Sequence record: MK672798.1 | Source of the DNA: Escherichia phage Skure | DNA: 59,463 nucleotides | Reading direction: 5' to 3' (one strand) | Shown: one piece after another, positions 23,948 through 50,610 of the stretch | How positions within the stretch are numbered: the first letter of the stretch is position 1 | How the letters are laid out: each line of letters starts with the position of its first letter | Notes under the pieces: model-generated | Database searches by the model: none | What the model was told of the DNA's origin: nothing | Seen by the model: only the letters and a program-made list of their open reading frames with translations | Translations under genes and position numbers: made by a program

Positions 23948-23983
23948 TCCTTAAATACCCGCGCGAACGCGGGTATTATTTTA

Positions 23984-29815: not shown

Positions 29816-29851
29816 GGTTTGCAGTTTCCTTGTTTGTTAATGTGGTCATAC

Positions 29852-31265: not shown

Positions 31266-31745
31266 TTATGCTCTCGCTGTACGTGAATGAACTTCGTAAA
31301 CAACCCAAAGGATAGCTGATGCTGTGAACTTACTTAAGCTCATTGCTACCATCGATCCCGGATTTACAATACCAATAATACTTAAGAATACAATGGAGTC
31401 AATTGGTACTGCGACCAAAGAGCTGATAAATACTCGTTGATGGAAAGGCTTCTTGGTGACCGTGTATACCACATAGTCAGCAAACTCGCTAAGTGCAAAT
31501 GACGCAACGGATGCAACTACAACCGCAGGATCCCCGAACACCCAGCTAAGAATGCAACCGACAATCATTGCAGGGATAACGCCTTTGCCAGCGTTACGCT
31601 GTGCGTAGTCACGCAGGACGAAGATAATACCTACGAAGAAAGCCATCATGGGTACTACGCCAAGCGGCGTGTTAAGTATTGGAAGGTAGGAAAAGCCCAG
31701 GTTTACGAACGTAATTGCAGCCAGGTAAGCAACGATAAATTTCAT
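31266..31745 (-). CDS. integral membrane protein, putative queuosine-precursor (preQ0/preQ1) transporter of the YhhQ/COG1738 type
   Basis: 159 aa, about 5 TM helices; sits between queC and queD; assigned by context, not by motif. Confidence 0.4.
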   Translation of the reverse strand: MKFIVAYLAAITFVNLGFSYLPILNTPLGVVPMMAFFVGIIFVLRDYAQRNAGKGVIPAMIVGCILSWVFGDPAVVVASVASFALSEFADYVVYTVTKKPFHQRVFISSLVAVPIDSIVFLSIIGIVNPGSMVAMSLSKFTASAILWVVYEVHSRTARA

Positions 31746-31865
31746 ACTTTTGTTCTCCAGTTTTAACAGCGTTATTCGCTGGTTGTTGGGTTTAAAAGCT
31801 TTAGTAGTATAGTTGGGTTACCGCACCCTAAACAATGCGCTAGCGGTGCGGTTTTCGCGGTAAGA

Positions 31866-32588
31866 TCAAACGTGTTTGCTGTAAGCGTTATCCATAAATT
31901 CAGTGTAACCCTTAGCACGGAGTTTACACGCTGGGCATTCCCCGCAACCGTATCCCCAGTCATGCAAAGTTCGACGAATGCCGTTATAGCAGGTGTGCGA
32001 CTGTTCAATAACTGTGGTTAAGAAACCAACCTTGTCCGCCAGCTCAAACGTTTCAGCTTTGTTTAAACGCATAAGTGGGGTAACAAAATGAATATCTGTT
32101 TCATATCCAACGTTTAAGGTAGCTTCAAGCAAATCAACAAACTGCTGACGGCAATCCGGATAACCGCTATAGTCCGTTTCACATACGCCTGTAACCACAT
32201 ATCGGGCTCCGACCTTCTGCGCGTAAGCGTGCGCGGTTGTCAGAAAAAGCGCATTACGATTTGGCACAAAACTTGCCGGAAGGTTATTGTGCTGTTCGTG
32301 ATGCTCGTTGACATCACCTTCGTTCCCGATCAAAGCGCTATTACCAATCTGTTTCAAAGCTGGTAATTCGAAGACAACAAACGGGACATTGTGCTCTTTA
32401 CAAATTTGATTAGCACAAGCCAGCTCAATGTTATGACGTTGACCGTATGCAAAACCAATAGCGTAAACTTTATCATAGTTATTAAGCGCAAGACCTAGAC
32501 AAGTCACGCTGTCCTGACCGCCAGACAGGACCACAACGGCGGAGTTATGATTTTTTACAGGGAACACCAGTTTATCTAATTTATTCAT
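31866..32588 (-). CDS. queC: 7-cyano-7-deazaguanine synthase
   Basis: 240 aa; PP-loop VVLSGGQDS; C-terminal zinc ribbon CxxCxxC (GCGECPACK); no fused amidotransferase domain. Confidence 0.9.
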   Translation of the reverse strand: MNKLDKLVFPVKNHNSAVVVLSGGQDSVTCLGLALNNYDKVYAIGFAYGQRHNIELACANQICKEHNVPFVVFELPALKQIGNSALIGNEGDVNEHHEQHNNLPASFVPNRNALFLTTAHAYAQKVGARYVVTGVCETDYSGYPDCRQQFVDLLEATLNVGYETDIHFVTPLMRLNKAETFELADKVGFLTTVIEQSHTCYNGIRRTLHDWGYGCGECPACKLRAKGYTEFMDNAYSKHV

Positions 32589-33690: not shown

Positions 33691-33699
33691 CTTAAATCC

Positions 33700-33735
33700 T
33701 CTAGTGAAAAAGAAAGCGCCTCATTGGGCGCTTTC
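33700..33735 (-). terminator. rho-independent terminator (- strand) downstream of the Ala-rich protein gene
   Basis: Plus-strand GAAAGCGCC-tcattg-GGCGCTTTC; on - strand followed by TTTTTCAC. Confidence 0.5.
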
Positions 33736-33759
33736 ATTATAACGTGATATGTTTTGATA

Positions 33760-34563
33760 TTACAAGCCGTTCAGGGCTTCCGGTACTGGCATAGGTACGC
33801 GACCAGTCACACCATTAAACTTCTTCCAACGTGCATACTGAGTTTTAACAGTATCTTCGTTCAGACCGTGACGACCTGCCAGATTCAGAACATAAGAGAT
33901 CGGAGCAGGCTGACCCAGCGTAGCGCTAATCTGGTCCATCAGAGCCCAGGCACGACCGCAGGAAGTTTCCGGTTGCGGACGACGAACACCATTCTGTTCA
34001 GGCATACGGTTCGCTTCTTTCGCTTTTTCACGTTCAGCTTTTTCGCGGGCTTTTTCAGCAGCCTTTTCAGCCTGTTTAGCAGCGCGGATCTTGTCTTTGA
34101 AGCCTTTGATAGACGAATCCAGTTCGTCGACCATGCTCTGAGCAGCAGTTACTGCACCGGACAGATCTTCACCTTTGGATTTTTTAACAACTGCTTTCAG
34201 ATCTTTCAGAGCATTCTTTAAATGCTTCAGCTGTTCGGAACCCTTAGATTCTGCTTCCGTAATCTGTTCAACAGTGCTTTCATCGGTAATACCGGATAAA
34301 GCAAACTTCACGGTTTCAACTGCCTGGGAAAGAGCGGTAAATTTATTTTCCGCTTCAGTACGAATTTCAGCTTGTTTCTTTTCAGCGGCAGCTTTTTTCT
34401 CTGCTTCTTTTTTCTCTTTTGCTACGCGTGCAGCTTCAGCGGCAGCGGCTTTTTTAGCTTCTGCGTCGTTAGCAGTAGCTTCTTTCTTTGCAGGCTTAGC
34501 AGATTTTGCAGCGGCAGCAGCGGCTGCGGCAGCAGCGGCTTTCTTATCTTCAATATTACTCAT
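33760..34563 (-). CDS. Ala/Lys/Glu-rich protein with poly-Ala tract and conserved C-terminal domain (function unknown)
   Basis: Start at ATG 34563 (GGAG RBS) rather than GTG 34572; 12-residue poly-Ala; C-terminus ...QYARWKKFNG paralogous to the protein at 50611-51225. Confidence 0.5.
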   Translation of the reverse strand: MSNIEDKKAAAAAAAAAAAKSAKPAKKEATANDAEAKKAAAAEAARVAKEKKEAEKKAAAEKKQAEIRTEAENKFTALSQAVETVKFALSGITDESTVEQITEAESKGSEQLKHLKNALKDLKAVVKKSKGEDLSGAVTAAQSMVDELDSSIKGFKDKIRAAKQAEKAAEKAREKAEREKAKEANRMPEQNGVRRPQPETSCGRAWALMDQISATLGQPAPISYVLNLAGRHGLNEDTVKTQYARWKKFNGVTGRVPMPVPEALNGL

Positions 34564-35185: not shown

Positions 35186-35244
35186 TGCAATCCCCTATAA
35201 ATAAGTAATGCCCCAATAGTAGGGGCATTAGATGTTGAAGTCAA

Positions 35245-38131: not shown

Positions 38132-38196
38132 TGGAATACCTTAGAAAAATAAGCCGTCTTTCGACGGCTTATGGACACTACAGAGGGAGGGTTATC

Positions 38197-41452: not shown

Positions 41453-41493
41453 TGTTTATCCTTAATAAAAAGGGGTCTGTTGACCCCTTATAG

Positions 41494-42527: not shown

Positions 42528-42568
42528 TTTAGTTTCCTCTTGGGCGGATTGACCGCCCGTTAATGTGG

Positions 42569-49600: not shown

Positions 49601-50075
49601 TGGTGCCACTGTTGCTAAAAACTTTAATAAAAACAATAAGTTGGTGCAGTAAGTTTTTGCGTTTTGGGGTAAAACGCATTTTTTACCCTAATACCCTAAT
49701 CCCGACTGTTAGTAAAAAACGTATATAAATCAATAAGATAGATACTAAATGAATAGTGAATGGAATGGGTAGAAATCCAAATGATGGAAGTGGAATAAAT
49801 TATTCCTACTTGATGGAATAATGGAATCGGTACTCTGGAGCGCAAAAACCTAAAACTTTCAGTCAACAGACTAAAAACGGATAGAAACTAAAAGTTAATA
49901 AGTAATACCATAAATATATATAAAATAAGGATTTATTAGTAATGTATATAGTACCTATTGGTATTTATTTGAATGTTTTTGGGTCTGCAATAAAAAGTCG
50001 CAAAACTCACAAAAAGTGAAAGAATACAATTCGTGACAGGATTGTTAATGGAATATGGTGTATGGATATACAGTA

Positions 50076-50113
50076 TTATTCCAGATTCCGGAATAATTGG
50101 AATAATGGAATAA
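50076..50113. repeat. GGAATAA repeat cluster with embedded 10-bp palindrome ATTCCGGAAT
   Basis: TTATTCC-agattcc-GGAATAA-tt-GGAATAA-t-GGAATAA; related palindrome GGAATAA-a-TTATTCC at 49792-49806. Confidence 0.6.
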
Positions 50114-50233
50114 ATTATTGAACTATTGTGGTCGGAAGGTATATCAAGCTATAATGCGCTTAATCGCGGGATATTGGAGGAGGACTTTATTGCGCGGTTA
50201 ACCGGACCAGTAGGAGGGCTGGCCCGGAGTAGT

Positions 50234-50566: not shown

Positions 50567-50610
50567 TCCTAGGGCTCCCGCAGAAGCCCGTTGGTTGATG
50601 TGGTTATAGA

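What the first reader, a model, noticed from the sequence alone, without database searches (positions are those of the whole stretch)
31821..31852. Hairpin in the queC to transporter intergenic spacer
CCGCACC...GGTGCGG forms a 7-bp stem with a 17-nt loop about 15 nt after the queC stop. On the coding (-) strand it lacks a U-tract, so it may be an mRNA stability or processing element rather than a terminator.
Basis: seen in the sequence. Interest (0 to 1): 0.25.

Follow-up and report, generated by a model that had tools for sequence, protein, structure and literature searches.

The report
Conserved U-less mRNA hairpin after queC
The hairpin is real and is conserved in a group of E. coli phages, sitting just after the queC gene with no run of U's behind it, so it is most likely an ordinary stem-loop that protects or bounds the upstream message rather than a classical terminator.

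Summary
The window is Escherichia phage CAjan (Seuratvirus). The hairpin exists at 31820-31852. On the coding (minus) strand it starts 14 nt after the queC stop. It has an 8-bp outer stem (ACCGCACC/GGUGCGGU), a bulged G, a 4-bp inner stem and an 8-nt loop, and folds at -16.6 kcal/mol.

It is single-copy and found in all 35 related phage records, always between queC and the putative preQ0 transporter gene. It is absent from E. coli genomes and matches no Rfam family. The core stem never varies in 14 close haplotypes. Three divergent lineages keep a -16 to -20 kcal/mol hairpin through changes on both arms.

No U-tract follows it. What follows is a rare G-poor, C-rich 38-nt linker, then a second small hairpin and the transporter's ribosome-binding site. 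More distant phages have an unrelated hairpin at the same place, with or without a U-run.

This anatomy best fits the U-less protective 3' stem-loops that E. coli uses on Rho-terminated or processed transcripts. Two GenBank records annotate the site as a rho-independent terminator, and the sequence does not support that. The finding is an ordinary member of a known kind and of low interest.

The parts
31866..31868 (-). queC stop codon (UGA); the queC CDS is 31866-32588
   Evidence: ORF list; Pfam QueC E 7.7e-75; TIGR00364 243 bits
31820..31852 (-). Hairpin 1, the finding. Outer stem 31845-31852 pairs with 31820-31827 (8 bp). Bulged G at 31844. Inner stem 31840-31843 pairs with 31828-31831 (4 bp, including one G-U). 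Apical loop 31832-31839.
   Evidence: Sequence; MFE and centroid fold; -16.6 kcal/mol against shuffles; conservation and changes on both arms
31852..31856 (-). GAAAA on the sense strand just 5' of the stem (TTTTC on the plus strand). Invariant in the CAjan-like group but replaced by CCCCU or CCCAG in STP-SP5, yong3 and L042.
   Evidence: Alignments
31782..31819 (-). Linker predicted to be unstructured, G-poor and C-rich (A17 C12 G1 U8). It contains the direct repeat AACCCAAC at 31812-31819 and 31785-31792, and GC|UUUU, which I read as resembling an RNase E site.
   Evidence: Composition; one of only two such 38-nt windows in the 28.5-kb minus-strand block; repeat count; G-poverty is kept in the divergent lineages (sequences)
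31767..31781 (-). Hairpin 2: CAGCG-AAUAA-CGCUG. The four outer pairs never vary in the close haplotypes; the loop is hypervariable and the closing pair varies (G-C, G-U or A.C).
   Evidence: Folds; variation table
31755..31758 (-). Shine-Dalgarno GGAG of the transporter gene. It is predicted to pair partly with CCCA at 31787-31790.
   Evidence: Sequence; RNAalifold pairs 79-82/111-115, with one A-U to G-U change
31266..31745 (-). Putative preQ0 transporter gene (YhhQ-like, 159 aa) downstream of the intergenic region
   Evidence: ORF; Pfam Vut_1 25.7 bits, below the 27.2 cut-off; TIGR00697 21.6 bits, below 50.95; annotated as a preQ0 transporter in GenBank and in PMC7544227

Best explanation
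Hairpin 1 is an RNA element of the sense (minus-strand) polycistronic message of the phage's 7-deazaguanine gene cluster. It sits just beyond the reach of a ribosome terminating at the queC stop codon. It is a stable stem-loop with no U-tract, so RNA polymerase mostly reads through it into the transporter gene. Its most likely job is post-transcriptional. Transcripts are ended downstream, either by Rho loading on the G-poor, C-rich untranslated linker or by endonuclease cleavage in that A/U/C-rich linker. The 3'-to-5' exonucleases PNPase and RNase II then trim back to the hairpin and stall there. This gives the queE-queC segment a defined, protected 3' end and a stability or abundance different from the transporter segment. 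Shown here: the hairpin, its stability, its strand context, the missing U-tract, its conservation with changes on both arms, the unusual linker composition, and unrelated hairpins at the same position in more distant phages. Inferred: the exonuclease-barrier role, and the source of the 3' ends (Rho or RNase E).
For: The hairpin is real and more stable than shuffles. It lies inside a 28-kb block of minus-strand genes. It is present once per genome in all 35 matching phage records and in 8 metagenome contigs, always between queC and the transporter gene. Fourteen close haplotypes carry no substitution in the 20 core stem positions. Substitutions fall in the 5' flank, the apical loop, the closing A-U pair, and one G-U to A-U change. 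STP-SP5, yong3 and L042 change both arms yet keep hairpins of -16 to -20 kcal/mol: the outer ACC/GGU becomes A/U or AGG/CCU, and the bulged G becomes a G-C pair. G-U pairs occur on the sense strand (G29-U38 in CAjan; G-U pairs in yong3 and L042), and these would be C.A mismatches on the other strand. There is no U-tract, and the terminator scan does not call the site. The 38 nt immediately downstream have 12 C and 1 G, a composition found at only two places in the 28.5-kb block. [quoted passage not shown] In a more distant lineage, contigs L045-L047 have an unrelated hairpin about 10 nt after the queC stop. Its stem covaries (CCAG/CUGG to CUAG/CUAG), and its U5 tail is present in L045 and L046 but absent in L047. 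Selection there acts on the stem, not on the U-run.
Against: There are no RNA-end, Rho or nuclease data for this phage or any relative. Sense and antisense folding energies are similar, so the strand is not decided by energy. Covariation rests on only three divergent lineages and a handful of events, and RNAalifold's covariation term on the MAFFT alignment is about zero. The G-poor linker is only 38 nt (74 nt up to the AUG), which is short for a rut site (my own knowledge of Rho). The whole 120-nt intergenic region is about ten-fold less diverse than synonymous sites, which is more conservation than a barrier hairpin needs. The CAjan group has an A-tract 5' of the stem, a feature Dar and Sorek associate with intrinsic terminators rather than Rho-type ends.
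Confidence: 0.45

Rival explanations
1. It is a leaky, non-canonical intrinsic terminator or attenuator on the sense strand that lowers transcription of the transporter gene and downstream genes relative to queE-queC. This is how GenBank annotates it in phages SA80RD and SA126VB.
For: Both records carry a 'rho-independent terminator; discovered using WebGeSTer' feature at the homologous site. The hairpin at the same position in L045 and L046 has a canonical U5 tail and is called by the terminator scan. The stem is GC-rich and stable.
Against: The 8 nt after the stem are AACCCAAC, with no U. The consensus scan does not call the site in CAjan, STP-SP5 or yong3. In the same GenBank record another terminator is credited to both WebGeSTer and TransTermHP, but this one to WebGeSTer only. 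folE further downstream is required for DNA modification (PMC7544227), and queD lies there too, so strong termination would be costly unless internal promoters exist.
Confidence: 0.15
2. It is a 'ribosome termination structure': a stable fold just after the stop codon that keeps ribosomes terminating at queC from sliding on and re-initiating, which insulates transporter translation from queC translation. This is compatible with the best explanation.
For: The hairpin starts 14 nt after the stop, and the intergenic distance is 120 nt. Such structures are reported to be enriched when the distance is at least 25 nt (bioRxiv 10.1101/2020.02.10.941153). Several other intergenic regions over 35 nt in this phage also begin with a hairpin that has no U-run. 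Phage EC151 and contigs L045-L047 have hairpins starting about 10-12 nt after the queC stop.
Against: With 120 nt and many stop codons in all frames between the genes, re-initiation by scanning ribosomes is unlikely anyway. The published signal is a genome-wide average that also contains terminators. Nothing here tests translation.
Confidence: 0.15
3. It is a DNA-level inverted repeat (an operator) or part of an internal promoter for the transporter gene. TTGTTT, an 18-nt spacer and TATACT overlap the 3' arm and the linker.
For: The whole intergenic region is about ten times less diverse than synonymous sites, as is the promoter-bearing region upstream of queE. TTGTTT-18-TATACT can be read in the CAjan sequence. 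Changes on both arms also preserve a DNA palindrome.
Against: The site fails the sigma-70 scan in CAjan, STP-SP5 and yong3. TATACT is replaced by TTACAC or TTACCT in the divergent lineages. The half-sites are 25 bp apart centre to centre, which I consider unusual for a dimeric repressor (my own knowledge). G-U pairs and a lineage-specific bulge fit RNA better than a protein-bound DNA palindrome.
Confidence: 0.1
4. It terminates antisense (plus-strand) transcription. On the plus strand the stem is followed by TTTT, so it would act as a one-way or bidirectional terminator that shields queC from antisense RNA.
For: The plus-strand fold is -15.8 kcal/mol and is followed by UUUUC. The A/T tract is invariant in the 14 close haplotypes. 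A plus-strand promoter-like site lies at 31343-31370.
Against: All genes for 28 kb around the site are on the minus strand. The T-tract is lost in STP-SP5, yong3 and L042 while the hairpin is kept. Only 4 T's follow the stem, and the scan does not call the site. The number of promoter-like hits in the region is at chance level.
Confidence: 0.07
5. The hairpin is one domain of a ligand- or factor-responsive leader (for example a preQ0/preQ1 sensor) that controls the transporter gene's ribosome-binding site.
For: From my own knowledge, bacterial yhhQ and queT genes often carry preQ1 riboswitches. The 120-nt leader is highly conserved. Predicted CCCA/UGG.G pairing covers part of the Shine-Dalgarno sequence, with one A-U to G-U change.
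Against: No preQ1-I, -II or -III hit, nor any other Rfam hit, even at E up to 10. The loop of hairpin 2 is too short and too variable to be a binding pocket. The predicted outer helix carries two disruptive substitutions. A preQ1-I-like alternative hairpin (GGGU...ACCC) is not kept in STP-SP5, yong3 or L042. The element was found only in Seuratvirus sequences.
Confidence: 0.05

Closest known systems
U-less protective 3' stem-loops at the ends of Rho-dependent or processed E. coli transcripts (Dar & Sorek 2018, PMC6061677)
   Same: A stable stem-loop of terminator-like size, no U-rich tail, C-over-G enrichment immediately downstream, and a position shortly after a stop codon in the host whose RNA machinery the phage uses.
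   Different: No 3' end has been mapped here. The element lies inside a phage operon whose downstream genes must still be expressed. The CAjan group has an A-tract 5' of the stem. The G-poor stretch is short (38-74 nt).
Canonical Rho-independent (intrinsic) terminator
   Same: A GC-rich hairpin after a gene end. It is annotated as such in GenBank records OL960575 and OL960573. The hairpin at the same position in L045 and L046 is canonical.
   Different: No U-tract on the transcribed strand. The consensus scan does not call it. The hairpin has a bulge and a two-part stem.
Ribosome termination structure (Chemla et al., bioRxiv 10.1101/2020.02.10.941153)
   Same: A stable mRNA fold directly downstream of a stop codon where the intergenic distance is at least 25 nt.
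   Different: That class is defined statistically and by reporter assays, and no translation test exists here. With a 120-nt gap, insulation may be unnecessary.
Intercistronic stabiliser hairpins and REP elements in differentially decaying operons (Dar & Sorek 2018, PMC5927463)
   Same: A conserved RNA structure between cistrons that could give the upstream segment a different stability from the downstream one.
   Different: It is single-copy and phage-specific, with no sequence relation to E. coli REPs (no match in 5,426 E. coli genomes).
preQ1 riboswitches upstream of queuosine-precursor transporter genes
   Same: A conserved, structured leader in front of a putative preQ0/preQ1 transporter gene.
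   Different: It fails all Rfam preQ1 models, and neither the loop nor the tail shows the required features. This is a resemblance of context only.

Membership tests
Intrinsic (Rho-independent) terminator | GC-rich stem-loop | tested here: met
   8 + 4 bp; 6 of the 8 outer pairs are G-C; -16.6 kcal/mol
Intrinsic (Rho-independent) terminator | U-rich tract immediately 3' of the stem on the transcribed strand | tested here: not met
   The sense-strand tail is AACCCAAC. The scan does not list the site in CAjan, STP-SP5 or yong3. L046 served as a positive control.
U-less protective 3' stem-loop of Rho-dependent or processed transcripts | Stable stem-loop not followed by a U-rich sequence | tested here: met
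   criterion taken from PMC6061677
U-less protective 3' stem-loop of Rho-dependent or processed transcripts | C-over-G enrichment just downstream (the rut region) | tested here: met
   C12/G1 in 38 nt and C18/G9 in 74 nt; one of two such windows in the 28.5-kb block; kept in the divergent lineages
U-less protective 3' stem-loop of Rho-dependent or processed transcripts | No A-tract upstream of the stem | tested here: inconclusive
   GAAAA precedes the stem in the CAjan group but not in STP-SP5, yong3 or L042
U-less protective 3' stem-loop of Rho-dependent or processed transcripts | Steady-state RNA 3' end right after the stem; ends extended by bicyclomycin or in pnp/rnb mutants | not testable with these tools
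   No transcript data found for any Seuratvirus
Ribosome termination structure | [quoted passage not shown] | tested here: met
   The hairpin spans +14 to +46 after the stop codon; the intergenic region is 120 nt; definition
Ribosome termination structure | Reduces re-initiation at the downstream cistron | not testable with these tools
   Needs reporter assays
preQ1 riboswitch (classes I-III) | Match to the Rfam covariance models | tested here: not met
   No hit at E up to 10 in 31600-32000; none at gathering score in the whole window
RNase III processing site (T7 R1.1 type) | About two helical turns (around 20 bp) of double-stranded RNA; this criterion is from my own knowledge | tested here: not met
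   Only 12 bp, interrupted by a bulge
Lambda-type nut site (boxA plus boxB) | boxA consensus YGCUCUUUA upstream of a short boxB hairpin; this criterion is from my own knowledge | tested here: not met
   UGAUCUUAC is more than one mismatch from the consensus and is absent from the 1-mismatch list. Such matches occur at chance level (34 against 31 expected). The sequence is not kept in yong3.
REP / host repetitive palindromes | Multi-copy element with sequence similarity to host repeats | tested here: not met
   One copy in the window, one per phage record, and no match in the E. coli genomes

The most novel reading that the evidence does not exclude
The whole 120-nt queC-yhhQ spacer is a single conserved regulatory leader RNA. 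Its parts would be hairpin 1, the duplicated AACCCAAC motif in the G-poor linker, hairpin 2, and a CCCA stretch that pairs with the Shine-Dalgarno sequence. It would tune translation or transcription of the phage's preQ0 transporter gene in response to a signal such as preQ0/preQ1 or Rho availability. That would make it a new, phage-borne sensor unrelated to the known preQ1 riboswitch classes.
Probability: 0.05. Interest if true: 0.65.

Novelty: new member of a known kind. Interest (0 to 1): 0.15.

Why it matters
If the explanation is right, the hairpin sets the relative amounts of the preQ0-synthesis enzymes (queE, queC) and the salvage transporter in a phage that replaces guanine in its DNA to escape restriction. 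It would also show that phages use the host's U-less "trim-back" 3'-end hairpins inside their own operons. In practice, it shows that the "rho-independent terminator" label in two GenBank records is not supported by the sequence. This matters only modestly, because elements of this kind are common and already described in E. coli.

Tried and rejected
- **Rfam:** a permissive scan of 31600-32000 (E up to 10) and a whole-window scan at gathering score found nothing relevant. No tRNA or tmRNA genes were found.
- **preQ1-I-like alternative hairpin:** GUUUAGGGU...ACCCAAC with a CUA-containing tail can be drawn in CAjan, but GGGU and ACCC are not kept in STP-SP5, yong3 or L042.
- **Anti-anti-SD switch:** the idea that the GGGU of the hairpin's 3' arm frees the Shine-Dalgarno sequence fails for the same reason. 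The hairpin also starts too far from the stop codon for a terminating ribosome to melt it (my own knowledge of ribosome footprints).
- **Sigma-70 promoter in the spacer:** no site passes the scan in three lineages, and the -10-like TATACT is not conserved.
- **boxA/nut-like site at UGAUCUUAC:** matches are at chance level and the sequence is not conserved. The pattern used was mis-specified and did not cover the site itself.
- **Small ORFs in the spacer:** a 20-aa TTG ORF on the plus strand and a 78-aa ORF overlapping queC out of frame have no ribosome-binding site. They are also broken or unconserved given the indels and the two queC 3' alleles.
- **Host origin or REP relationship:** no match in the E. 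coli genomes.
- **Wider homologues of the leader:** protein-guided searches of viral, metagenome and genome contigs added only one more divergent copy (L042). More distant transporter genes sit in other contexts.
- **Predicted outer helix GCUUUU/AAAAGU around the transporter leader:** two disruptive substitutions in close relatives.
- **Strand assignment by folding energy:** sense and antisense energies are about equal.
- **Literature:** no transcript-level information on CAjan or Seuratvirus was found.

Full report
**Identity of the window.** A 1.4-kb segment around the finding is 99.9% identical to Escherichia phage CAjan (Seuratvirus, Queuovirinae) and 90-93% identical to about 30 other Seuratvirus phages. 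The finding lies in CAjan's 7-deazaguanine (preQ0) DNA-modification cluster, inside a roughly 28-kb block in which all genes are on the minus strand. The neighbours are:
- QueC at 31866-32588 (Pfam E 7.7e-75; TIGR00364 243 bits);
- a 159-aa membrane protein at 31266-31745 that GenBank and the CAjan literature call a preQ0 transporter (YhhQ). Its family matches fall below the curated cut-offs: Vut_1 25.7 bits against 27.2, and TIGR00697 21.6 bits against 50.95.

The 120-nt spacer at 31746-31865 is the largest non-coding gap in the cluster.

- On the coding strand the "loop" holds a further 4-bp helix after a bulged G, leaving an 8-nt apical loop.
- The 33-nt element folds at -16.6 kcal/mol, against -9.2 +/- 2.3 for shuffles; 0.3% of shuffles reach it.
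- It begins 14 nt after the queC stop. It is followed by AACCCAAC on the sense strand, so there is no U-tract, and by TTTT on the antisense strand.
- The pattern is unique in the window, with 0.03 expected by chance.
- Perfect GC-rich 8-bp inverted repeats are strongly enriched genome-wide (22 against 3.3) and are mostly intergenic. This hairpin belongs to a population of intergenic hairpins. Some of them carry U-tracts (33712-33735, 38151-38170, 41470-41489) and several do not (42528-42568, 50567-50610).

**Conservation among close relatives.** The 126-nt stop-to-start segment occurs once in each of 35 phage records, all classed in or closely resembling Seuratvirus, always between queC and the transporter gene. 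It is absent from 5,426 complete E. coli genomes.
- Among close relatives the spacer's nucleotide diversity is 0.018. Third codon positions of both flanking genes are at 0.17.
- The other regulatory spacer of the cluster, upstream of queE, is similarly conserved. High conservation of intergenic regions is therefore general here.
- Across 36 loci I found 14 close haplotypes. None has a substitution in the 20 core stem positions of hairpin 1.
- Changes fall in the 5' flank (positions 11 and 12 counted from the UGA), in the apical loop (31, 32), at the closing A-U pair (U49G, in 5 of the 14 haplotypes), and at G29A, which turns a G-U pair into A-U.
- On its own this distribution is only suggestive (P about 0.06 for no hits in the core stem, by my calculation).

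**Conservation in divergent lineages.** Three divergent lineages add changes on both arms: Salmonella phage STP-SP5, Hafnia phage yong3 and metagenome contig L042.
- The invariant core CGCACC/GGUGCG is kept.
- The outer ACC/GGU of CAjan becomes a single A-U pair in STP-SP5, and AGG/CCU with a bulged C in yong3 and L042.
- CAjan's bulged G becomes a G-C pair through a one-base insertion in the 3' arm.
- All four versions fold at -16 to -20 kcal/mol.
- G-U pairs on the sense strand mildly favour sense RNA. Folding energies of the two strands are otherwise similar.
- RNAalifold on the MAFFT alignment recovers the core helix but gives almost no covariation score, because the informative changes sit where the alignment shifts register.

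**Unrelated hairpins at the same position.** In more distant Queuovirinae contigs that keep the queC-transporter order (L045-L047, 66% transporter identity), a hairpin of unrelated sequence sits about 10 nt after the queC stop.
- Its stem covaries (GGGCCAG/CUGGCCC against GGGGCUAG/CUAGCCCC) and its loop is identical.
- It is followed by U5 in L045 and L046, where the scan calls it a terminator. No U-run follows it in L047.
- Enterobacter phage EC151 also has a hairpin just after queC.

A stem-loop right after queC therefore recurs across lineages, while the U-run comes and goes.

**The rest of the spacer.**
- Directly after hairpin 1 comes a 38-nt stretch with 12 C and 1 G (31782-31819). It is one of only two such windows in the 28.5-kb minus-strand block, and its G-poverty is kept in the divergent lineages. 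It contains AACCCAAC twice.
- Then comes hairpin 2 (31767-31781, CAGCG-AAUAA-CGCUG). Its loop is the most variable site of the spacer and its closing pair varies among G-C, G-U and A.C.
- Then comes the GGAG ribosome-binding site (31755-31758).
- A predicted CCCA/UGG.G pairing would cover part of the ribosome-binding site and shows one A-U to G-U change. The predicted outer helix of that fold has two disruptive substitutions and is not supported.

**Mechanism.** The anatomy has three parts:
- a stable stem-loop of terminator-like size with no U-rich tail;
- C-over-G enrichment immediately downstream;
- a start far enough past the stop codon that, by my own estimate of ribosome footprints, terminating ribosomes should not melt it.

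This matches what Dar and Sorek mapped at the steady-state 3' ends of Rho-dependent E. coli transcripts, where such stem-loops stop PNPase and RNase II after diffuse termination further downstream (PMC6061677).

My best explanation (confidence 0.45) is that hairpin 1 is a sense-strand mRNA 3' barrier and boundary element for the queE-queC segment. The 3' ends would be generated in or beyond the G-poor linker, by Rho or by endonuclease cleavage, and read-through transcripts would carry on into the transporter gene. The hairpin, its conservation, the missing U-tract and the linker composition are shown. The nuclease-barrier role and the origin of the ends are inferred.

**Rivals.**
- **Leaky non-canonical intrinsic terminator (0.15).** This is how GenBank records OL960575 and OL960573 annotate the site, from WebGeSTer alone. 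The missing U-tract and three negative scans argue against it.
- **Ribosome termination structure insulating translation (0.15).** This is compatible with the best explanation. The position fits the published description, but nothing here tests translation.
- **DNA operator or promoter element (0.10).** TTGTTT-18-TATACT can be read in CAjan, but it is not conserved and fails the scan.
- **Terminator for antisense transcription (0.07).** It would use the plus-strand TTTT, but the tract is lost in the divergent lineages while the hairpin is kept.
- **Domain of a riboswitch-like leader for the transporter gene (0.05).** No Rfam match, and no conserved alternative pairing.

**Comparison with known families.**
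- It works most like the U-less protective 3' stem-loops of E. coli, and like intercistronic stabiliser hairpins. Three of that class's sequence-level features were tested: two are met and one is inconclusive. The defining experimental feature, a mapped 3' end sensitive to Rho and exonucleases, cannot be tested here.
- It is not a canonical intrinsic terminator: the U-tract was tested and not met.
- It is not a preQ1 riboswitch: the covariance models were tested and not met.
- It is not an RNase III site (only 12 bp), not a nut site (the boxA match is at chance level), and not a REP-type repeat (single copy, no host match).

**Verdict.** The hairpin is a real, conserved and structurally constrained RNA element, and an ordinary new member of a known kind. 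Its main practical value is to correct an automated "terminator" annotation. It also flags a compact, very conserved leader in front of the phage's putative preQ0 transporter gene that would be cheap to test. Interest is 0.15. The most novel reading the evidence does not exclude is that the whole spacer is a new signal-responsive leader RNA, at about 5% probability.

Noticed in passing
window 31767-31781 (minus strand): A second small hairpin (CAGCG-AAUAA-CGCUG) lies 9 nt upstream of the transporter gene's Shine-Dalgarno sequence. The four outer pairs do not vary in the close haplotypes; the loop is the most variable site of the spacer (A, G, C or U at one position), and the closing pair varies among G-C, G-U and A.C. 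A predicted CCCA (31787-31790) pairing with UGG.G would partly mask the ribosome-binding site.
   Followed up: partly
window 31782-31819 (minus strand): The 38-nt linker has 12 C and 1 G, one of only two such windows in the 28.5-kb minus-strand block. It holds two copies of AACCCAAC (31812-31819 and 31785-31792). That 8-mer occurs 6 times in the window against 1.9 expected.
   Followed up: partly
window 29836-29845, 42559-42568, 50594-50603 (all minus strand): The motif CCACATYAAC occurs three times (0.31 expected). Each copy is on the coding strand in a short intergenic spacer just after a stop codon. In two cases a U-less GC-rich hairpin and a ribosome-binding site follow. This may be a phage-specific intercistronic signal.
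   Followed up: no
window 31866-31905: The last 30-40 nt of queC exist as two very different alleles among Seuratvirus phages (diversity 0.287; C-termini ...FMDNAYSKHV or ...YSEFISKA). They abut the nearly invariant spacer exactly at the stop codon, which suggests recombination breakpoints at the conserved intergenic sequence.
   Followed up: partly
window 33691-33765: The spacer upstream of queE is 100% identical in four relatives. It holds a promoter-like TTGTAA-18-TATAAT whose -10 is followed directly by a canonical hairpin plus U5 (33712-33735). Transcripts starting at this promoter would therefore begin inside the terminator stem.
   Followed up: no
window 23948-23983, 35186-35244, 42528-42568, 50567-50610: Other short minus-strand spacers also carry strong GC-rich hairpins with weak or absent U-tracts just after stop codons. 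Perfect GC-rich 8-bp inverted repeats number 22 in the window against 3.3 in shuffles.
   Followed up: partly
window 49867-50233: A 367-nt AT-rich non-coding region contains repeated TTATTCC units and an ATTCCGGAAT palindrome (about 50075-50115). It may be a regulatory or replication-related region.
   Followed up: no
window 31266-31745: The 'preQ0 transporter YhhQ' label rests on sub-threshold family matches (Pfam Vut_1 25.7 bits against a 27.2 cut-off; TIGR00697 21.6 against 50.95). The protein is 159 aa, against a profile of about 200 positions. PHROG 4899, which it matches strongly, has no assigned function.
   Followed up: partly
L045-L047 (metagenome contigs), about 60 nt upstream of the transporter start: A more distant Queuovirinae lineage has an unrelated hairpin after queC with an identical loop (AAGAAAC), a covarying stem, and a U5 tail that is present in two contigs and absent in the third.
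   Followed up: partly
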